64,000 bases of DNA from Naegleria gruberi (Eukaryota): NCBI GenBank assembly GCA_000004985.1, contig GG738868.1; one strand, written 5' to 3'. A program made the position numbers and the translations under genes. The notes beneath the pieces were generated by a model. It was not told the origin of the DNA and did no database searches. It saw nothing but the letters and a program-made list of their open reading frames with translations. How positions within the stretch are numbered: position 1 is the stretch's first letter; every line of letters starts with the position of its first letter. Shown here piece after piece: positions 7,884-26,977 of the stretch.

Positions 7884-8192
7884 TTTTTTAATAAAGATTT
7901 TTTCGGATCAAGAAATATTTATTTATTAATTAATTTCTAGTAGAAATTGAGTTAATCTTTTTAATATTGGCCAATTGAATTAGTCAAATATTTTCAAACA
8001 TTTATTACAAACATAATTGAGAATTATCAATTTGATAATAAATTAATATTTGATAATCAATTATGTAAAAGTATTCTTAATAAATTAATTTATTTTCTAA
8101 TCACAATTTACATTTCTCTTTTGATAACATCTTCTTCAAAATCTATCAAAAATACAGTATAATCCTTGTTTTCAGTCATGGCAACTCTTACT

Positions 8193-8960
8193 TCAGCTCT
8201 CTAATTGATCCACACCACAATTGATAAGAATTGAAATATTGAAATGAGTACTTACAAAATCAGCTGCATTCAAAGCCCCTTTAATGATACCTGCACTGAA
8301 ATAGGCACATTGCACATTCATATCTCTTGGTGGAGAAATGAATTTAGTTTCTAATGGTTCCTTCTCATAGATCATGTCTGTAATTATTAAATAATATTAA
8401 ACTATTAAAATAATCCAAAATATTCAACACCTACATCTTGTAATAATCTTATTTTCTCCTGGAATAGCAGCAGCTTTTTCAATTGTTGTAACAATTCTTC
8501 CAAAAAGACATTTCCACATTGTATTTCCAATAAATCCCAACATGTTTGGTACTTTAATTTCTCTCTTTGAATTTTTATCTCTCAAAACACATAATTCAAG
8601 TAATCTTTGTCCGATCGGCATTCCTAATTGTAATAATCTTCATCAATACACAAAATCATTAAATTTTTAAATTCCAATCATCCCCTCACTATCAACCTAC
8701 TTTTCATGCAATTCATTTACATCATTTACTCTTGATTGGCAATATTGTACAACTTCCGCAAACAGGAAAGAAAAGGCAGGCTCGCTCACCTCCTTTTTCT
8801 GTCTAATTAAATTTTGATCAAGAATATTTGGAGCATAATCTTTCTGTGGATAGGTTGGTGAATTTACAGTTGGTGAATTAACGATCGGGCTATTGGCAGG
8901 AAATGATTGTGTTGCCGTCCCGAAATTTGTTGTTGGTGTTTGACTATTCGATGGTAACAT
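8193..8960 (-). CDS. TRAPPC5: TRAPP complex subunit 5 (Trs31/TRAPPC5), 3 exons
   Basis: Exons 8960..8701, 8637..8435, 8377..8193. The two introns (8638..8700 and 8378..8434, both GTAGGT..AG) restore colinearity with human TRAPPC5: EVSEPAFSFLFAEVVQYCQSRVNDVNELHEK|LLQLGMPIGQRLLELCVL..REIKVPNMLGFIGNTMWKCLFGR..|YMIYEKEPLETKFIS..CAYFSAGIIKGAL. ORF-track pieces 8697..8960, 8424..8621 and 8193..8375 are the exons. Confidence 0.75.
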
Positions 8961-9371
8961 TTTTTTTTAAAATTAAAAAAAAATTTGAAAAATTAGAAAT
9001 TTTGAAATATAATATAATAAATAATTATTGTAGAGACATCTATTTTGAGAATGGAATTTGATTCAGTGCAAGATAATGCATCTATGGAGCTGCATTCTTA
9101 TTAACAGAGATACAAATTGGACAATATTCAAAGAGAAATGGCTTTTCGAAAAGAATGCTACTAAGGACTGGCAACTCTTTCCTTATGAAATCTTTTTTTC
9201 TCATTCTCAACCACCTAATATCAACCCAAACCATCAAACGTTACGAATCATCCATTCAAAAAAACAAATTTATCCACACACACAAATTCAAATCAAAAAA
9301 AACCGCTACATTTTTACGCTTTCTTTTGATGCATTTTTGTGTTCGACTTGTTGCTCCGTAAATCAACCAAC

Positions 9372-20513: not shown

Positions 20514-23228
20514 TTACTTGAAATATTTAGCAATTCTGTTGGACATTTTGTATCTTAATGATGGTGGAGATTTATCCAAATTATTAATATAATAATCTTC
20601 CATTGGAGTTGGTGGATAATAGAGTGGAATGTGACATCTACTTCCAGAGTACTTTGAAAAACATCGACATGAATCAATTCCAATACAGAAACCATTTCCA
20701 GAACATACATCCACACTTGTTGCATTCTTTCCAAAACACTGCCATTCATCTACAGTAATAATAACATTAAATGCCTCACCTGAATCCAGTGTAAGAGGTA
20801 TCTTTCCATTTGGTTTTGCAAGTGCCAGAACAGGTTCATCATTATATAGACTCGTAGAGGTGGGAGCTGCTTGAAGATATTCGTTTAAACCTCTTGCATA
20901 AATATTGCCCCTATTGGTAACGTAAAGTGTAGCCATAGAACTGTCATCTCCAGCAGATACATCAACTACTAGCTCAGAGTTTGGAATTAGTTTGACAAGA
21001 GATGTTCCTGAATAATAGTACATTGCAATACCATCATCTGAAAGAAAAGCTGGAAGATTTCCACATATAATTTTGATTATTTTCTTTGAGCCAATTAAGC
21101 CGTTTTCCAATCTGGTCCAATTTGTAACTGTTGTAACAGTAGCACTATAGATTATTCTATAGTTTGAATTTTCACCAATAGCAAAGACCTTTCCTGACTT
21201 GGTCAAGATATAAAATGTGTTGGTGCAAATTGCAAAATCTTGAAGGGTTTCACCTATGGCACTAGTTGCATTGGAAATATCTAGCTCAGTCCATGAAGTT
21301 GCTATGGATGGCATGTTAGGAGCTCCAAAATTTCCAACAGCTCCTCTAACCACTATACTTCCATTATTCAATTGTATACCAAGGAAATTATATCCAGTAG
21401 CTATCTTTTTTGCAGTCCAATTTGGTGTCTCAGAAAATACATCAATTGGAGTGAAAAGAAATGAAGATATATAATCAATACCATACTGATAAGCATGGCC
21501 ACTTCCCCAACCATATACTTTTCCTGAACTTGTCAAAATTAATCCATTGGTTGCTGAAATTCGAATGTCAATAATTTCACTATTGTTATATTGTGTTGCA
21601 TTGACTTGTTGAGGAGGGGTTGAAGAGACAATTTCATTGCTGTTTAATGAGGTACCACTAGCACAAACACCCCAATTGTGGAGAGTTGAATTTCCTCCTT
21701 CATAATTGATATTAATATAGGAGCAACCATTAGTTGATCTCACTAAAACATTTCTCACATTATTTGCAAATGGATTGTAACCATTGAGTGTTAGAGGAGA
21801 AGGAAGAACTTGTTTGTAATCCCCATAACCCATTTGGCCTCTGTAATTATCACCAAATGCATAAAACTTTCCAGAGTTTCCACTTATTAAGGAATAACCA
21901 TTAAGAGTTAAAAATCCTTCAGAAGGAATTGTATCACCTCCAATATCTATATCATACATATCGTATGGTGATGTTCTTCCTCTATCAGGATCCTTTCCCC
22001 ATGATAACAAACTAGCAGCTCCCATAATACCAAACAAGCAAAAACCTGCATTACTACTTCTGTCAATGTCAAGTATTTCACCGCTTAAACCTCTTGTAGT
22101 GGCAGCACTATTAATTACAGATGTCAAATTATAGGGTGTATAAATAGGGGAACCTCCAAAAGCAGGATTAGAGCTTGCTTGTCCTTCATTATTTGCACCA
22201 AACACATAAACATGTTTTGACTCTGTTAATATTGTTCCAGTACGATCTCCAAGAGTAATCTTTATCGGTTTCTCAGTGGAATAATCTAATGGAAGGAGTT
22301 GTGGTTCTGAAAAGACACTTGTTCCAGTATTTCCAATTCCTAATGCTCCATCTACATTCGAACCCCAAACCAATACATGATAGGTAGAATTAATGACAGC
22401 TGCACTATAACTATAAAGACTCATCGACAGAACATTACGTAATTTGGGTAAAAGTGTTGGTGTGGAGTCAGTTCCAGTGTTTTCAGGAGTGTGACCTCTT
22501 AATCCATCACCCCAACCACCCCATGAAAAGATATGACCACTATCCATCAAGACTAAATAAGTTGGTTCGCCAAATACTCCACCAACATAAACCTGAGCTA
22601 TGTTTGCAGTGATAGATACTTGCAAATCTGGATCGACGAAAGTTGTTGGAACATCATATTTAGCTAAACCTAATCCAAATAATTGATGGACATAGACTTG
22701 ATTATCTGTGGTGGCCAGAATACATGTAAACCAACACTTGATTTTGTGAACTTCCTTATCTTTCAATGGATTGGTGGCTATTTTATCCTGACGATAGTAA
22801 CCTAAAGTTACATAATTTGGAATATTATAAGGAACTTCAGCAAATGCAAAATATGAATTACTATTATCTCCTGCCATGAGAATAGTTTGTCCAATCAATG
22901 AATTATCAGTACCATTTCTAAATGACAGTAAAACTGTCGTAAATGTCAAACCTCCTGTTATAACTGTTGGAGTGGTAATAACATTGCTCATTCCATAGGC
23001 AACATTCCATGTGTAATTATTAGAAAACATTTCTCCAAAGTGTTGCAATTCAACAGGTGTCTTGGCAGCATTCAGAATAGGATATGCCAAATTTCCGATC
23101 ATGTTACTTCCCCACACTGTTATTGAAGGATTCGAATAGGTTGCACATTGTGTTGATGTGGTGAAATAGAAGAGCAAGAAAGTGCAATAAACTAGTGCTG
23201 CAACAGATACCGTATATTTAGAAATCAT
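20514..23228 (-). CDS. Secreted RCC1-like repeat (beta-propeller) protein with C-terminal EGF-like Cys-rich module
   Basis: Signal peptide MISKYTVSVAALVYCTFLLFYFTTSTQC. There are multiple RCC1-type blades (VWGSN..GALGIGN, VYVFGANNEGQ, YAFGDNYRGQMGYGD, VYGWGSGHAYQYG). The C-terminus is DVCSGNGFCIGIDSCRCFSKYSGSRCH (EGF-like). 904 aa, single exon. Confidence 0.6.
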   Translation of the reverse strand: MISKYTVSVAALVYCTFLLFYFTTSTQCATYSNPSITVWGSNMIGNLAYPILNAAKTPVELQHFGEMFSNNYTWNVAYGMSNVITTPTVITGGLTFTTVLLSFRNGTDNSLIGQTILMAGDNSNSYFAFAEVPYNIPNYVTLGYYRQDKIATNPLKDKEVHKIKCWFTCILATTDNQVYVHQLFGLGLAKYDVPTTFVDPDLQVSITANIAQVYVGGVFGEPTYLVLMDSGHIFSWGGWGDGLRGHTPENTGTDSTPTLLPKLRNVLSMSLYSYSAAVINSTYHVLVWGSNVDGALGIGNTGTSVFSEPQLLPLDYSTEKPIKITLGDRTGTILTESKHVYVFGANNEGQASSNPAFGGSPIYTPYNLTSVINSAATTRGLSGEILDIDRSSNAGFCLFGIMGAASLLSWGKDPDRGRTSPYDMYDIDIGGDTIPSEGFLTLNGYSLISGNSGKFYAFGDNYRGQMGYGDYKQVLPSPLTLNGYNPFANNVRNVLVRSTNGCSYININYEGGNSTLHNWGVCASGTSLNSNEIVSSTPPQQVNATQYNNSEIIDIRISATNGLILTSSGKVYGWGSGHAYQYGIDYISSFLFTPIDVFSETPNWTAKKIATGYNFLGIQLNNGSIVVRGAVGNFGAPNMPSIATSWTELDISNATSAIGETLQDFAICTNTFYILTKSGKVFAIGENSNYRIIYSATVTTVTNWTRLENGLIGSKKIIKIICGNLPAFLSDDGIAMYYYSGTSLVKLIPNSELVVDVSAGDDSSMATLYVTNRGNIYARGLNEYLQAAPTSTSLYNDEPVLALAKPNGKIPLTLDSGEAFNVIITVDEWQCFGKNATSVDVCSGNGFCIGIDSCRCFSKYSGSRCHIPLYYPPTPMEDYYINNLDKSPPSLRYKMSNRIAKYFK

Positions 23229-23601: not shown

Positions 23602-24621
23602 TCAATAAACAATGGCATGTTTAGAAACAGTTTTGATTGTTTGTATTATTTGTTGGACCATAAAATTATGAAACGGTTCGGTGAGGCCATTCTGGTGCTC
23701 TTCTAGTAGTTCCAAATATTTTGTTCTGCATTTCTTTTGTACAGTAATATCAAATAGTCCATATCTATTAAGAATCATATTCATCAATAATCGAGCAGTT
23801 CTTCCATTCCCATCCAGAAATGGGTGAATATGAAGAAATTTACAATGTGCTAGAATGGAAAAGAGTGCAGGATGTAATATTCCATTATCAACTCTTTCTC
23901 TATTCAAATGGAACCACTCAAAGTATTGTTTCATGATTTGAGGTACCTCCTGAGGGTAGGGTCTAACAGTTTCAGAACCCTTGACACGAATTGGGATGAG
24001 TCTATAATTCGATTCCATAAAACCTTCAACATTGCAATAACATTTACTCTTCCCAAAAAGTTCGGTGTGAATATTAAGCAACTGATTTTCGTTAAAATGG
24101 CTTAGTGGTTGTTCCTCTAATTTAGAAATATATTGGAAAGCATGGTGGTGGAACAGTACTTCTAGACATTCTCTTGTGGTTGCTTCTTTTTGCAAAATCT
24201 GACTGAAATCTTGTTGTGATACACCCATTAGTTGTTCAGAAGAGTAAGTGCCGAATGAGTCAAAGAGGATTTCGCAGTCTTTTTGCGATAAAGTATTTCC
24301 CTCAATGCTTGTGCTGTGGTGAGTATTTGAAAGACGATAATTTGCCCAGATGGCATGGTTTTTAGAAAGCTGTGGTACAATACTTGTGGATAAAGAATCT
24401 AAGTAACCTAAATGATAGATATTTGCCAATGGTTGCTCATCTTTGAAGATATTAGTGGCTCCCAACCACATTTCTCCAGAAAATGCCTTTTTAACTTTTT
24501 CTTCTGGTGAGAGGGAGTTATAGATAGAGTAAATCTCCAGCAAACGTTCCTTTCGGCGTGCTTCTTTGCTCTCTATTATAGTATTAAAGGTTGCATTTAA
24601 AAGAAGTCGTGAGGTACGCAT
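23602..24621 (-). CDS. Fic-domain protein (Fido/AMPylase family), compact single-domain form
   Basis: Canonical Fic motif HPFLDGNGRTARLLMNMIL (HxFx[DE]GNGRxxR) at nt 23800..23826. An upstream inhibitory-helix-like motif STSIEG matching (S/T)xxxE(G/N) lies at about 24298..24315. 339 aa, no TM/TPR region, intronless. Confidence 0.8.
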   Translation of the reverse strand: MRTSRLLLNATFNTIIESKEARRKERLLEIYSIYNSLSPEEKVKKAFSGEMWLGATNIFKDEQPLANIYHLGYLDSLSTSIVPQLSKNHAIWANYRLSNTHHSTSIEGNTLSQKDCEILFDSFGTYSSEQLMGVSQQDFSQILQKEATTRECLEVLFHHHAFQYISKLEEQPLSHFNENQLLNIHTELFGKSKCYCNVEGFMESNYRLIPIRVKGSETVRPYPQEVPQIMKQYFEWFHLNRERVDNGILHPALFSILAHCKFLHIHPFLDGNGRTARLLMNMILNRYGLFDITVQKKCRTKYLELLEEHQNGLTEPFHNFMVQQIIQTIKTVSKHAIVY

Positions 24622-25003: not shown

Positions 25004-26977
25004 ATGGTTTCAGCATCAACAACGAGAGCAAAAAATCGATTGTTAAGAGACTTGAAGGAGATTGAGAATAATCCATTAGAAACTGTGTATGCCCAACCTT
25101 TGCCAAACGATATATTTCATTGGTATGCAACAGTGTTGGCTCCAAAGGAATCTCGTTACCATGGAATTATATTGAATTTGAGTATTGTTTTCCCAGAAAC
25201 GTATCCGAAAGATCCACCCAAGGTTGTTTGCTCGACTCGTATTCACCACCATCATGTCTTTCCAACTTGGATCTGTTTGGACATGTTGAGAACTCACTTT
25301 TCATCAGAGCCTTACAGTGGATGGAGTTCCAGTTATTCTTGTTTGTCCATCTTGTTGCAGTTGCAATCCTTCTTATTGGAGGAGGAAGAACAGCAAAAAG
25401 ATTACATTAAGGAAGATATTGCATCATCAAGAGACTATTCTAATCTCAAAATAGGACATAATCCGAGTAAGGGAAATATTTGGCCACGAGCACCACATTG
25501 GAATGTGGATGAAATTATCAAATCAGAATATGATCCCTCTTTACAAACTAAAAAAAAGGATGAAACTCAATATGAGAAGGGTGTTGTTGACATGGATTTG
25601 GAAGAATTTATTGAGAAGGAGACGAAGCAAGCGAGCTCTGTAATGTCAAAGAAGAAGAGAAAAAAGATGAACCGATTACAAAGATCCAAAAAGGAGGAAA
25701 ATGATGAGAATGTCCCTTCAAGCAGTACATCTACTATTACTCACCAAGCACCTGTTCAATTAAACAAGATTGAAAAGATGAAGGACCTTCCAAATGAAAC
25801 ATTGATTCATATTTTGAGTTATCTATCTCTCATTGACTTGAAGAGAGTGAGCAACTCTTCCAATTTTATGAAACTCTTGTGTGAAAACAAGAGTTTGACA
25901 ACTGAAAGAGAATTGATTTGTTTCCACTCCAAAGTAACCTACAAAGAAGATATTCTTGGAGTTGGATTAACATTTGAAACAAAGGATGGTGGGGTGGTTG
26001 CCTCCATTTCTACTCCATTAGATTTGGTATCAAAAAGTGCATTCTTTGATGAAAGTGTCAGAAAGAGTGTTTGGGGTGTTTTGACTCAACAATGGATTCC
26101 AATATATATTAATAAGGAACATGGAAACTTTGAGGCTCTAAAACAAGCCGTCAAGAGTATTGCCAAGTCATATCCATCACTATCTCAATCCAATAAGTTT
26201 GACAGTCCAGAAATCTATATTGATCTATTGTGTAAATTGATGAATACCATGGTGGTTGAGATTATGAAAGGTCAAACCCATGCCTCAATCAAGGCCCTGT
26301 ATGGATATATGTACTTTCACCGATGGCTGATTTACTTGGTTCAAAAGTTCCCATCTGCTCTCAAAGATATTGAGGAACAAGTCAAATCCTTTGTTACCAA
26401 TGAGAATTCACGTAAAAAGTCAAATTGTCCAAACATTGGCGAATTCCTTCCAAAACTTTCAGTTTTGGGTCCATCTGGTTTAACTTGGGATTATGTTAAA
26501 TCATCTGTTGTTGAGGAAACCTCTATTAGAAATCAACTTTGGGTCATCAAGCAGTTCCCTTCTCTATCTTCCACTAATGATAGTTCAGATGATTTCAGAT
26601 GCACCAATTCGTGGGTGGCAAACAATGTCTCTTGTAAGCTAATTATGTTCCATGTATTCTTCTTGAGAAATGTTGTAGAATCTTATACTGACCTTTCTCT
26701 TGAAGAATTTGGAAGATTGTACGATAATAACTTTGGTTGCCCACCAAAGACAAAGAATGGTGATTTTTTGGAAGATGTTCTTCAAAGGGAGGTATTCACA
26801 ATTCAAAATGTGTCATGTTTCCAACAATATTTCGAATACGTCGGTTTACCAAATATGAAAACAAGAACATCTGTTGCTCAATATTTGAGAAATTGTGTTA
26901 CCATTAGTGAAAAGAGAAGATATCATAATAATTTCAAAAATGGAAACAAGAACAACTTTTACAAAAATAAAAAGTAG
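25004..26977 (+). CDS. UBC (E2) core domain + F-box fusion protein with long uncharacterised C-terminal region
   Basis: The N-terminal ~120 aa is a UBC fold (RLLRDLKEIENNP..HWYATVL..Y..G.I.L.I.FP..YP..PPKV.C.T.I.HHHV....WICLDML..W.P..S..SILLQLQSFL) with the catalytic Cys at 25274..25276. The usual HPN is replaced by HHHH (25244..25255). An F-box-like motif LPNETLIHILSYLSLIDLKRVS lies at about 25796. The remaining ~390 aa is unassigned. Confidence 0.7.
   Translation: MVSASTTRAKNRLLRDLKEIENNPLETVYAQPLPNDIFHWYATVLAPKESRYHGIILNLSIVFPETYPKDPPKVVCSTRIHHHHVFPTWICLDMLRTHFSSEPYSGWSSSYSCLSILLQLQSFLLEEEEQQKDYIKEDIASSRDYSNLKIGHNPSKGNIWPRAPHWNVDEIIKSEYDPSLQTKKKDETQYEKGVVDMDLEEFIEKETKQASSVMSKKKRKKMNRLQRSKKEENDENVPSSSTSTITHQAPVQLNKIEKMKDLPNETLIHILSYLSLIDLKRVSNSSNFMKLLCENKSLTTERELICFHSKVTYKEDILGVGLTFETKDGGVVASISTPLDLVSKSAFFDESVRKSVWGVLTQQWIPIYINKEHGNFEALKQAVKSIAKSYPSLSQSNKFDSPEIYIDLLCKLMNTMVVEIMKGQTHASIKALYGYMYFHRWLIYLVQKFPSALKDIEEQVKSFVTNENSRKKSNCPNIGEFLPKLSVLGPSGLTWDYVKSSVVEETSIRNQLWVIKQFPSLSSTNDSSDDFRCTNSWVANNVSCKLIMFHVFFLRNVVESYTDLSLEEFGRLYDNNFGCPPKTKNGDFLEDVLQREVFTIQNVSCFQQYFEYVGLPNMKTRTSVAQYLRNCVTISEKRRYHNNFKNGNKNNFYKNKK

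What the first reader, a model, noticed from the sequence alone, without database searches (positions are those of the whole stretch)
23602..24621. Compact, bacterial-like Fic (AMPylase) protein with intact catalytic and inhibitory motifs
The ORF has a perfect HPFLDGNGRTAR Fic motif plus an upstream S-T-S-I-E-G segment matching the class II inhibitory-helix signature (S/T)xxxE(G/N). It lacks the TM/TPR N-terminus of metazoan FICD and is only 339 aa. That is the size and layout of bacterial class II Fic proteins, which suggests a horizontally acquired gene. It is intronless, but its AT-rich codon usage matches the neighbouring genes, so it is integrated and not a contaminant.
Basis: partly seen in the sequence, partly recalled or inferred. 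Interest (0 to 1): 0.5.

Follow-up and report, generated by a model that had tools for sequence, protein, structure and literature searches.

The report
Amoeba/fungus-type Fic enzyme, not FICD
The ORF is a real, intact Fic-type protein-AMPylating enzyme of the amoeba Naegleria gruberi, and it belongs neither to animal FICD nor to ordinary bacterial Fic proteins but to a small uncharacterised family, shared with fungi and another amoeba, that carries its own N-terminal module.

Summary
Window 23602..24621 (-) is an uninterrupted 339-aa ORF with a canonical Fic motif (HPFLDGNGRTAR, H266-R277) and an upstream inhibitory motif (S103-TSI-E107-G108). It is 100% identical to an annotated "predicted protein" of Naegleria gruberi on a 428-kb scaffold, and its GC3 matches the neighbouring genes.

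The core is FICD-like: the AlphaFold model has pLDDT 94, and human FICD is the best solved match. The protein never groups with metazoan FICD in trees (0/300 and 0/200 bootstraps). Its layout also differs from the nearest bacterial Fic proteins, which are 30-35% identical and mostly carry a C-terminal HTH domain.

It belongs to a small family with three distinguishing features:
- a short basic, acid-poor leader;
- an undescribed N-terminal module of about 70 aa (R23, Y31, G49, W52 invariant);
- an insertion after the inhibitory helix.

The N-module is homologous to that of a large fungal "fic/DOC family protein" clade (hhalign 96.6%, E 7e-10). Balamuthia mandrillaris also has a member.

The most likely function is an autoinhibited AMPylase/deAMPylase. 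Its target is unknown and mitochondrial targeting is only inferred. A recent bacteria-to-Naegleria transfer is not supported; an older bacterial origin of the whole family remains plausible.

The parts
23602..24621 (-). Complete 339-aa Fic protein gene (the end coordinate includes the stop codon). Identical to the annotated N. gruberi 'predicted protein'.
24574..24621 (-). N-terminal leader, residues 1-16 (MRTSRLLLNATFNTII). It has two Arg, no acidic residue and is not hydrophobic enough for a TM helix. Possible short organelle-targeting peptide (inferred).
   Evidence: the first acidic residue is at position 17. The family median is 19, the fungal clade median 32 and the bacterial relatives' median 6; no TM segment.
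24367..24585 (-). Family-specific N-terminal helical module, residues 13-85. Signature R23-x7-Y31 ... S48-G49-x2-W52 ... D75. It is absent from FICD and from the bacterial relatives.
   Evidence: hhalign of the N-terminal 98 aa against the fungal profile gives 96.6%, E 6.7e-10; against FICD 0.2%; against bacterial 0.5%; invariant residues; no PDB or Pfam match; helices H2-36, H39-48, H50-56, H68-80, pLDDT 86-97 over residues 11-100 (86 only in the 61-70 block).
24295..24315 (-). Inhibitory-helix motif S103-T-S-I-E107-G108-N109, matching (S/T)xxxE(G/N). Glu107 is the predicted autoinhibitory and deAMPylation residue.
   Evidence: invariant E107 in alignments A1, A2 and A4; sits at the C-terminal end of helix H89-106
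24172..24294 (-). Insertion after the inhibitory helix, residues 110-150 (three short helices). It lengthens the Glu107-to-His158 spacing to 50 residues, against 32 in the bacterial relatives and about 33 in FICD.
   Evidence: spacing medians are 50 for the family, 59 for the fungal clade and 32 for the others; no detectable sequence similarity between the amoebal and fungal inserts, so the feature is positional only.
23770..24096 (-). Pfam Fic/DOC domain match, residues 176-284
23956..24006 (-). Presumed flap / target-docking segment, residues 206-222 (YRLIPIRVKGSETVRPY), including invariant R207 and P221
   Evidence: for conservation; isolated beta bridges at residues 196 and 204 and lower pLDDT in the preceding loop. 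The assignment rests on the alignment to FICD and is inferred.
23791..23826 (-). Catalytic Fic motif H266-P-F-L-D270-G-N272-G-R274-T-A-R277
   Evidence: all motif residues invariant in every group compared

Best explanation
The gene encodes a catalytically competent class II-type Fic enzyme with an FICD-like catalytic core. It belongs to a distinct, uncharacterised Fic family found in amoebae and fungi.

Shown here: the Fic motif and the inhibitory motif are intact. The fold is confidently predicted and is closest to human FICD. The protein groups with other ~340-aa proteins that have the same layout: a short basic leader, a novel N-terminal helical module, the inhibitory helix, an insertion, and then the Fic core. 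The N-module is homologous to that of a large fungal clade.

Inferred from established Fic/FICD biochemistry (Engel et al. 2012; FICD work by Preissler, Perera and colleagues; recalled, not tested here):
- His266 acts as the general base that activates a target Ser/Thr/Tyr hydroxyl for attack on the alpha-phosphate of ATP.
- Asp270 and Asn272 hold Mg2+ and the phosphates.
- Arg274 and Arg277 bind the beta/gamma phosphates.
- Glu107 of the inhibitory helix pairs with Arg277 and forces ATP into a non-productive pose. The resting enzyme would therefore be a poor AMPylase and, as in FICD, may act as a deAMPylase using the same Glu.
- Relief of inhibition would switch it to AMPylation.

The N-module and the insertion sit where FICD has its TPR/linker and its dimer-relay region. 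They are therefore the likely determinants of target choice and regulation (inference).

The basic, acid-poor, poorly conserved leader suggests import into an organelle, most likely the mitochondrion. This is clear in the fungal members and marginal in Naegleria. The target is unknown; an organellar Hsp70, by analogy with FICD and BiP, is a guess.

Evolutionarily it is an old resident of eukaryote genomes with a patchy distribution (Heterolobosea, Amoebozoa, Fungi), not a recent bacterial import into Naegleria.
For: - Domain and motifs.
- Identity to the N. gruberi protein on a 428-kb scaffold.
- Structure: AlphaFold2 gives mean pLDDT 94.0 and pTM 0.91, a single compact all-helical body. By Foldseek the best solved matches are human FICD (TM 0.62-0.65, rmsd ~3.0 A over ~268 columns, 28-30% identity), then BT_2513 and C. 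elegans FIC-1. phmmer against PDB puts FICD on top at 90 bits.
- Family: the exhaustive phmmer search found full-length relatives that cover residues ~5-330, namely P0121 (39% identity, 231 bits) and P0122-P0140. A profile search gives 12 members at 334-444 bits, then a gap to 220 and 181 bits.
- Key residues: S103 is S in 23 of 25 members; E107, H266, D270, N272, R274 and R277 are conserved in 25/25 family members, and all of these but R277 (65/66) in 66/66 fungal members.
- N-module homology to the fungal clade: hhalign 96.6%, E 6.7e-10, with invariant R23, Y31, G49 and W52.
- Trees: the family's sister group is the fungal-type group in ~91% of bootstraps. With the fungal set added, family+fungal is recovered in 57%, fungal alone in 84%, and family+FICD in 0%.
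- Named members: Fusarium, Neonectria, Trichoderma, Colletotrichum, Verticillium, Chaetomium, Microdochium and Mycena, and Balamuthia mandrillaris KAL6056783.1 / KAL6053843.1.
- The contig of the 62%-identical relative carries a SHIPPO-repeat flagellar protein and an F-box/LRR protein, so it comes from a flagellated eukaryote.
- Leader statistics.
Against: - No enzymatic, localisation or target data exist for any member.
- The Naegleria leader is only ~16 residues. AlphaFold places residues 2-36 in one helix that is part of the folded body from about residue 11, so any cleavable presequence must be very short. No validated targeting predictor was available.
- Support from the Fic core alone for the link to fungi is moderate (57%) and could be inflated by long-branch attraction. 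The core HH score to the bacterial profile (365 over 233 columns) is as high as that to the fungal profile (374 over 312 columns, of which ~64 comes from the N-module).
- The shared insertion is positional only.
- Trees were NJ with Kimura distances, not maximum likelihood.
- Most family members come from unidentified metagenomic contigs. One of them (L166) looks as much like a giant virus as a protist.
Confidence: 0.72

Rival explanations
1. One reading: a recent horizontal acquisition by Naegleria of an ordinary bacterial class II Fic gene, for example from prey or an endosymbiont, since ameliorated to host composition.
For: - After the family itself, the most similar proteins are bacterial, at 30-35% identity and 100-118 bits. 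They include lineages associated with amoebae: Babeliales, Chlamydiae, a Rickettsia-labelled MAG and Patescibacteria.
- Fic proteins are overwhelmingly bacterial, and published work infers several independent bacteria-to-eukaryote transfers (PMC4454073; PMC2686095).
- No N. fowleri or other EukProt homologue appeared among the strong hits.
- The gene is intronless, and its codon-adaptation value is the lowest in the window (z -1.9).
Against: - The bacterial relatives align only to residues ~95-330. They lack the N-module and the insertions, and most carry a C-terminal HTH.
- The N-module is shared with fungal proteins, and the clade contains Balamuthia.
- No bacterial or archaeal genome, and no viral contig, yielded a full-length relative.
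- No bacterial hit stands out as a donor; all are about 30% identical.
- GC3 is indistinguishable from the neighbours.
Confidence: 0.1
2. A divergent, vertically inherited orthologue of metazoan FICD/HYPE that lost its TM and TPR region. On this view it is an ER enzyme that acts on BiP.
For: - Human FICD is the best solved match by both sequence and structure.
- Both are class II, with an xxIEGN inhibitory motif and an HPFxDGNGRTxRLLMN motif.
Against: - The family groups with FICD in 0/300 and 0/200 bootstraps. FICD's own neighbours are other sequences.
- The mean distance from the family to FICD (1.88) exceeds that to the other, mostly bacterial, sequences (1.72).
- The profile score to FICD (275) is lower than to the bacterial profile (365).
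- The N-module has no similarity to the FICD N-terminus (0.2%).
- There is no signal anchor or TM segment.
- The ~18-residue insertion falls in the segment that corresponds to FICD's dimer-relay region.
Confidence: 0.05
3. The family moves between amoebae, and perhaps fungi, on giant viruses. The Naegleria gene would then be a domesticated viral gene, or the reverse: the viruses captured it from their hosts.
For: - The closest relative outside the Naegleria-like trio is P0121 (39% identity, same 339-aa layout). It lies in an 87%-coding, ORFan-rich 14-kb contig next to thymidine kinase and the ribonucleotide reductase large subunit.
- The best PDB match of that thymidine kinase is entry 2j87, recalled to be the vaccinia enzyme. 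It scores only marginally above 5fuv, recalled to be Trypanosoma brucei TK.
- The contigs L003 and L004 are also compact and ORFan-rich.
- The phyletic distribution is patchy.
Against: - No full-length member is present in IMG/VR.
- There is no close structural relative in BFVD.
- The reductase of L166 is only 40-49% identical to its best matches in IMG/VR, which include giant-virus MAG contigs.
- No NCLDV hallmark gene lies on these contigs, and the mimivirus early-promoter motif is not enriched.
- The Naegleria window around the gene shows ordinary eukaryotic genes.
Confidence: 0.13

Closest known systems
Metazoan FICD/HYPE (human FICD, PDB 4u04, 6i7g-l; C. elegans FIC-1; Drosophila CG9523)
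   Same: Both have a class II layout, with the inhibitory motif TVAIEGN in FICD and STSIEGN here. The Fic motifs are alike: HPFIDGNGRTSRLLMN in FICD and HPFLDGNGRTARLLMN here. FICD is the best solved structural match (TM ~0.63, rmsd ~3 A, 28-30% identity). It is therefore the best mechanistic model: Glu-dependent autoinhibition and deAMPylation.
   Different: - This protein has no TM anchor and no TPR repeats. It has a different N-terminal module with no detectable homology to FICD's.
- It has an ~18-residue insertion after the inhibitory helix and 7 more residues before the flap.
- It never groups with FICD in trees.
- A likely different compartment and target are inferred.
Bacterial class II Fic proteins with a C-terminal MerR-type or excisionase-type HTH (e.g. 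P0011 Patescibacteria, P0017 Alphaproteobacteria, P0098, P0274 Levyibacteriota) and short 250-aa versions; solved relative BT_2513 (3cuc)
   Same: These are the most similar sequences outside the family (30-35% identity over the core, 100-118 bits). They share the inhibitory motif (T/S)SNAIEGN and the Fic motif HPFxDGNGRTARLLMN, and the core is collinear.
   Different: - In the bacterial proteins the inhibitory Glu lies about 46 residues from the N-terminus, against 106 here.
- They have no N-module and no insertions.
- Most carry a C-terminal DNA-binding HTH, which is absent here.
Fungal 'fic/DOC family protein' / 'Fido domain-containing protein' clade (e.g. Fusarium falciforme XP_053008514.1, Neonectria, Trichoderma, Colletotrichum, Verticillium, Mycena), uncharacterised
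   Same: They share a homologous N-terminal module, (R)xxxLxxxYxxFxxL...SGxVW. They have an insertion at the same site after the inhibitory helix, an intact Glu and Fic motif, and a basic acid-free leader. This clade is the sister group in NJ trees.
   Different: - Identity is only 23-27%.
- The fungal inhibitory motif often reads E-D or E-N instead of E-G.
- The fungal leaders are longer and are textbook mitochondrial-type.
- The insert sequences are not detectably similar.
- Fungi also have a ~267-aa version without the N-module.

Membership tests
Fic/Fido superfamily (Pfam PF02661) | Significant match to the Fic/DOC profile | tested here: met
   60.2 bits against a gathering cut-off of 24, E 3.6e-16, residues 176-284
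Fic/Fido superfamily (Pfam PF02661) | Canonical AMPylation-type motif HxFx(D/E)GN(G/K)RxxR | tested here: met
   HPFLDGNGRTAR at residues 266-277; every position is invariant across the groups compared
Fic/Fido superfamily (Pfam PF02661) | All-helical Fic fold | tested here: met
   AF2 model with pLDDT 94 and pTM 0.91; Foldseek probability 1.00 to FICD, BT_2513, SoFic, CdFic and others
Fic/Fido superfamily (Pfam PF02661) | AMP-transferase (or deAMPylase) activity dependent on the motif His | not testable with these tools
   Needs recombinant wild-type, H266A and E107G protein with labelled ATP
Class II Fic (Engel et al. 2012 classification; recalled from knowledge) | Inhibitory motif (S/T)xxxE(G/N) in the same polypeptide, N-terminal to the Fic core | tested here: met
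   S103-T-S-I-E107-G108 lies 159 residues upstream of His266, at the end of helix H89-106. It aligns with the inhibitory motif of the bacterial relatives and matches the AIEGN motif in the retrieved FICD sequences.
Class II Fic (Engel et al. 2012 classification; recalled from knowledge) | The inhibitory Glu contacts the second Arg of the Fic motif and obstructs productive ATP binding | not tested
   Model coordinates could not be inspected with the tools. Inferred from the alignment of E107 and R277 with FICD E234 and R374.
Metazoan FICD/HYPE orthologue group | N-terminal TM anchor followed by two TPR repeats | tested here: not met
   No TM segment (max hydropathy 1.27), no TPR in Pfam, and the N-terminus has no similarity to the FICD profile (0.2%)
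Metazoan FICD/HYPE orthologue group | Phylogenetic grouping with FICD sequences | tested here: not met
   0/300 and 0/200 NJ bootstraps
Bacterial HTH-Fic group (Fic + MerR/HTH_17) | Short N-terminus (inhibitory Glu ~46 residues from the start) and a C-terminal HTH domain | tested here: not met
   106 residues precede the Glu here, against a median of 46. There is no HTH in Pfam, and the protein ends 8 residues after the last core helix.
Amoebal/fungal N-module Fic family (defined here) | N-terminal module with R23, Y31, S48-G49, W52 and D75 | tested here: met
   Invariant in 16 amoebal-type and fungal sequences; hhalign 96.6%, E 6.7e-10
Amoebal/fungal N-module Fic family (defined here) | Extra residues between the inhibitory Glu and the conserved (N)H of the next core helix | tested here: met
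   50 residues here; family median 50, fungal median 59, others 32. No sequence similarity between the inserts.
Amoebal/fungal N-module Fic family (defined here) | Organelle (mitochondrial) localisation | tested here: inconclusive
   Composition statistics only. In the fungal clade the first 25 residues hold on average 4.6 R/K and 0.4 D/E. In Naegleria there are 2 Arg and no acidic residue in the first 16 residues. No validated predictor and no experiment.

The most novel reading that the evidence does not exclude
The gene is the Naegleria representative of an unrecognised non-metazoan eukaryotic Fic family (amoebae, fungi, possibly their giant viruses). In this reading, its members are imported into mitochondria and reversibly AMPylate a mitochondrial client such as mtHsp70. 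That would be an organellar counterpart of the FICD-BiP switch, using a new N-terminal targeting and regulatory module in place of TPR repeats. It would contradict the statement in a current review that eukaryotic Fic proteins exist only in metazoans and are absent from fungi (PMC12409994).
Probability: 0.25. Interest if true: 0.65.

Novelty: new variant of a known kind. Interest (0 to 1): 0.4.

Why it matters
Eukaryotic AMPylation is currently discussed in terms of two enzymes: ER-resident FICD, said to be metazoan-only, and mitochondrial SelO. A 2025 review states that Fic proteins are absent from fungi (PMC12409994).

This gene, with its fungal and Balamuthia relatives, shows there is a second Fic lineage encoded in eukaryote genomes. 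It has an intact catalytic and autoinhibitory apparatus, its own conserved N-terminal module and leaders that look like organelle-import signals.

If these enzymes are active, they offer genetically tractable systems (filamentous fungi, Naegleria) for studying how Fic autoinhibition is relieved without TPR repeats or FICD-type dimerisation, and for finding new AMPylation targets. They also refine the horizontal-transfer story. The Naegleria gene is not a fresh bacterial import. It is part of a patchily distributed family whose spread (vertical with losses, eukaryote-to-eukaryote, or virus-mediated) is open.

The finding itself is an annotated, uncharacterised protein of a known enzyme class, so the interest is moderate.

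Tried and rejected
- Synteny: the contigs of the 62%-identical relative (L001, L002) share nothing with the window besides the Fic gene and generic LRR similarity.
- NCBIfam: only sub-threshold hits (XopAC 38.7 bits against a cut-off of 450, SoFic, NmFic). No named bacterial equivalog applies.
- IMG/VR scan with the family profile: only phage or prophage class II Fic cores, 25-33% identical, most starting near residue 85-100 and none aligning before residue 35. No family member.
- GTDB species-genome scan: the same result. The best hits are 31-32% identical and start near residue 97-100.
- BFVD fold search: only distant Fic folds (WSSV Wsv406, a Fusobacterium phage).
- The AFDB50 library was unavailable, so no organism-labelled structural neighbours could be obtained.
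- Deciding whether L166 is a giant virus was inconclusive. The tests were the mimivirus promoter motif, IMG/VR scans with its reductase and an ORFan, and PDB comparison of its reductase and thymidine kinase.
- Homology of the post-inhibitory-helix insertion between the amoebal and fungal groups: not detectable.
- N-module against PDB sequences and Pfam: nothing.
- Literature: no paper combines Naegleria with 'Fic domain', and the ten that mention both Naegleria and AMPylation showed nothing on this protein (one read, the rest judged from title and abstract). No characterisation of the fungal 'Fido domain-containing' proteins was found.
- Contamination was considered and rejected, because the gene lies on a 428-kb N. 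gruberi scaffold with host composition.
- A pseudogene or chance ORF was considered and rejected, because all catalytic residues are intact and relatives are conserved.
Full report
**1. The observation**

The minus strand of the window carries an uninterrupted ATG-to-stop ORF at 23602..24621, coding for 339 aa.
- An in-frame stop lies 24 codons upstream of the ATG, so the start is not ambiguous.
- The Fic motif HPFLDGNGRTAR occupies residues 266-277 (nt 23791-23826).
- Pfam Fic/DOC matches at 60.2 bits against a cut-off of 24, E 3.6e-16.
- There is no hydrophobic segment of TM quality. The maximum 19-residue Kyte-Doolittle value is 1.27, on the core helix before the motif. Pfam reports no TPR.

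**2. Source and integration**

The protein is 100% identical over its whole length to 'predicted protein [Naegleria gruberi]' (NCBI, UniRef, EukProt), carried on a 427,589-bp contig.
- The window is ~33% GC throughout.
- The flanking genes are eukaryotic in type: an RCC1-repeat/EGF protein, a UBC E2 + F-box protein, a MORN-repeat protein, a TPT-family transporter, an FSH1 hydrolase and a histidine acid phosphatase.
- GC3 of the Fic ORF is 0.310, against 0.288 +/- 0.044 for 26 other ORFs (z 0.5).
- A leave-one-out codon-adaptation index is the lowest of the set (z -1.9), which is a weak signal.

**3. What the protein resembles**

Against solved structures by sequence, human FICD is the best hit (90 bits, query 147-331). 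BT_2513 and C. elegans FIC-1 follow.

An AlphaFold2 model built on a 72-sequence alignment is very confident: mean pLDDT 94.0 and pTM 0.91. It is all-helical, with a long N-terminal helix over residues 2-36. Foldseek against the PDB again puts FICD first (TM 0.62-0.65, rmsd ~3.0 A over ~268 columns, 28-30% identity).

The catalytic core is therefore FICD-like and class II in layout. All residues needed for catalysis and autoinhibition are present, and they are invariant in the alignments: S103, E107, H266, D270, G271, N272, G273, R274, R277.

**4. Bacterial relatives**

In the 5.8-billion-protein search, two relatives are 60-62% identical. The next hits are bacterial Fic proteins at 30-35% identity and 100-118 bits, and they cover only about 63-79% of the query.
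- They are 245-335 aa long.
- The inhibitory motif (TYTSNAIEGN) lies near residue 50.
- Most end in a MerR-type or excisionase-type HTH.
- The Naegleria protein has about 50 extra N-terminal residues, an insertion after the inhibitory helix, two smaller insertions, and no HTH.

The statement 'the size and layout of bacterial class II Fic proteins' is therefore only superficially true.

**5. A distinct family**

The exhaustive phmmer search of 1.84 billion cluster representatives found proteins that match over almost the whole length, including the N-terminal 100 residues. They are P0121 (39% identity, also 339 aa, 231 bits) and P0122-P0126, P0128-P0130, P0136 and P0140 (92-175 bits).

Aligned, they share one plan:
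- a short, variable, basic leader;
- a conserved block R-x3-L-x3-Y...L...SG-x-x-W;
- the motif THHSTAIEGN;
- an insertion;
- the Fic core.

A profile of this set retrieves 12 members at 334-444 bits. The scores then drop to 220 bits (a tandem double-Fic protein) and 181 bits (bacterial HTH-Fic proteins). N. gruberi was the only named source at that stage.

**6. Relation to FICD and to fungi**

I built NJ trees on 206-208 core columns (query residues 95-332, so the N-module is excluded), using Kimura distances.
- With 181 sequences, the family (26 sequences including fragments) is monophyletic in 62% of 300 bootstraps. It is never sister to the metazoan FICD clade (0/300). That clade was recognised by TM+TPR-bearing sequences such as P0151. 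In ~91% of replicates the family's sister is a group of four proteins: P0208, P0221, P0183 and P0195.
- P0208 is a Fusarium falciforme 'Fido domain-containing protein' (XP_053008514.1).
- A profile search seeded with both groups returned a large fungal clade annotated 'fic/DOC family protein'. It includes Fusarium, Neonectria, Trichoderma, Thelonectria, Hirsutella, Colletotrichum, Verticillium, Chaetomium, Microdochium and a Phaeosphaeriaceae species, plus the basidiomycete Mycena more distantly.
- With these added (293 sequences), bootstrap support is 84% for the fungal clade, 54% for the amoebal-type family, 57% for the two together and 0% for family+FICD.

Independent evidence comes from the N-terminal 98 residues alone, which were not used in the trees.
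- They align to the fungal profile with hhalign probability 96.6% and E 6.7e-10.
- They align to FICD at 0.2% and to the bacterial profile at 0.5%.
- R23, Y31, G49 and W52 are invariant in 16 amoebal-type and fungal sequences.
- This module has no Pfam match and no PDB sequence match.

Both groups also have extra residues at the same site after the inhibitory helix. The Glu-to-His158 spacing has a median of 50 in the family, 59 in the fungal clade and 32 in the others. FICD is about 33 by my count. The inserts themselves show no detectable similarity.

Caveat: the core of the Naegleria family scores as well against the bacterial profile as against the fungal one. The tree grouping may therefore be helped by long-branch attraction. 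The N-module is the strong link.

**7. Who else has it**

- One member of the amoebal-type clade is annotated 'Cell filamentation protein Fic [Balamuthia mandrillaris]' (KAL6056783.1 and KAL6053843.1; the gene models are partial).
- The contig of the 62%-identical relative (L001, GC 0.415) carries a SHIPPO-repeat (flagellar) protein at 54.7 bits, an F-box/LRR_6 protein and Q/S/P-rich ORFs. It therefore comes from a flagellated eukaryote, plausibly another heterolobosean.
- Other members lie on unidentified contigs. L167 is sparse in genes and carries a protein kinase. L003 and L004 are compact and ORFan-rich. L166 carries the closest relative, P0121, in an 87%-coding stretch next to thymidine kinase and the ribonucleotide reductase large subunit. 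That stretch looks like a giant virus, but no hallmark gene, promoter motif or close IMG/VR relative supports this.
- No full-length member was found in IMG/VR, in BFVD or in one genome for each of 185,579 bacterial/archaeal species.
- No N. fowleri or other EukProt protein appeared among the strong hits. This suggests a patchy distribution, but it was not tested on genomes.

**8. How it most likely works**

Shown: intact motifs, a confident FICD-like fold and conservation across the family.

Inferred from established Fic/FICD biochemistry (recalled, not tested):
- His266 deprotonates a target hydroxyl for attack on the ATP alpha-phosphate.
- Asp270 and Asn272 bind the metal and the phosphates.
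- Arg274 and Arg277 bind the beta/gamma phosphates.
- Glu107 pairs with Arg277, so ATP binds non-productively.
- The resting enzyme is therefore autoinhibited for AMPylation and may, like FICD, use the same Glu for deAMPylation.

The canonical motif argues for AMP transfer rather than phosphocholination or phosphorylation. The N-module and the insertion replace what in FICD are the TPR/linker and the dimer-relay segment, so target recognition and the activating switch must differ.

**9. Localisation (inferred only)**

The residues before the conserved module vary in length and sequence. They are rich in Arg/Lys and Ser/Thr and poor in acidic residues.
- Fungal members: on average 4.6 R/K and 0.4 D/E in the first 25 residues, with the first acidic residue at a median position of 32. 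This is typical of mitochondrial presequences.
- Amoebal-type family: the first acidic residue is at a median position of 19.
- Bacterial relatives: median position 6.
- Other ATG-started ORFs of the window: mean net charge +0.2.

The Naegleria leader (MRTSRLLLNATFNTII) is short, and from about residue 11 it is part of a confidently modelled helix. For this protein the inference is therefore weak, about 0.4 in my estimate. An organellar Hsp70 as target is only an analogy.

**10. Literature**

Kinch et al. 2009 (PMC2686095) noted eukaryotic Fic in metazoa 'and a few fungi'. Khater & Mohanty 2015 (PMC4454073, supplement) described four eukaryotic groups: Basidiomycota; Dictyostelium, plant and fungal proteins; metazoa; and fungal Doc-like proteins. 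They inferred separate transfers from bacteria, and Naegleria is not mentioned. A 2025 review states that eukaryotes have one FIC protein, present in metazoans and absent in plants and fungi (PMC12409994). I found no paper on the Naegleria, Balamuthia or fungal N-module proteins.

**11. Verdict**

The ORF is a genuine, already annotated but uncharacterised N. gruberi Fic enzyme.

The gene is not an FICD orthologue, and it is also not a plain bacterial-layout gene freshly acquired by Naegleria. It belongs to a eukaryote-associated family with its own N-terminal module, shared with fungi and Balamuthia.

I rate it as a new variant of a known kind, of moderate interest (0.4). The most novel surviving reading, an organelle-targeted counterpart of the FICD switch, has a probability of about 0.25.

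Noticed in passing
window 25004..26977 (+): A 657-aa ORF, divergently transcribed from the Fic gene, fuses a ubiquitin-conjugating E2 domain to an F-box. The E2 domain (UQ_con, 74 bits, residues 12-140) keeps the catalytic 'ICLD' Cys, but the usual HPN reads HHH. The F-box covers residues 260-298. This is an unusual E2 + substrate-adaptor fusion.
   Followed up: no
window 20514..23228 (-): A 904-aa protein with a hydrophobic N-terminus, RCC1-like repeats (WD40_RLD 164 bits, RCC1, RCC1_2) and a C-terminal EGF-like module. It looks like a secreted or membrane RCC1-repeat protein.
   Followed up: no
L166 1..11186 (JGI 3300055138 contig, Fic gene at 8001-9020): The closest relative outside the Naegleria-like trio is P0121 (39% identity, same 339-aa architecture). 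It lies in an 87%-coding, ORFan-rich stretch with thymidine kinase, the ribonucleotide reductase large subunit and an LRR_6 protein. The stretch could be a giant virus or a compact protist; this was not resolved. The reductase is 40-49% identical to its best IMG/VR matches, which include giant-virus MAG contigs. No hallmark genes are present.
   Followed up: partly
P0420, P0411, P0413, P0395, P0381, P0386, P0422 (Pestalotiopsis fici): A second version of the fungal-type Fic protein, about 267 aa long. It is 45-59% identical to the Fusarium protein and starts at a conserved Met just before the inhibitory helix, so it lacks the leader and the N-module. Some copies lie on Mb-size contigs.
   Followed up: partly
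fungal clade, alignment column of query residue 108: In the fungal clade the residue after the inhibitory Glu is Asp in 27, Asn in 18 and Gly in 13 of 66 sequences. Many members therefore read S-x3-E-D, outside the published (S/T)xxxE(G/N) signature, while the Glu itself is invariant.
   Followed up: no
P0004 (531 aa, Logan contig): A protein with two complete tandem class II Fic units, each with its own inhibitory motif and HPFxDGNGR motif. It scores between the family and the ordinary bacterial relatives.
   Followed up: no
L001 1223-2278 (P0002) and P0003: The gene calls for the two 60-62%-identical relatives look disturbed. P0002 diverges after residue ~316 into an unrelated tail. P0003 lacks ~25 residues in the middle of the core. 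Unrecognised introns in those organisms are the likely cause, whereas the N. gruberi gene is intronless.
   Followed up: no
L004 1555-3546, 8804-9835: The contig that carries family member P0140 has a gene starting 6 nt after the Fic stop codon, with a weak GmrSD_N-like match. It also has a ResIII/DEAD helicase, an AAA ATPase and a DUF285 (BspA-like) repeat protein at 388 bits. The source organism is unknown.
   Followed up: partly
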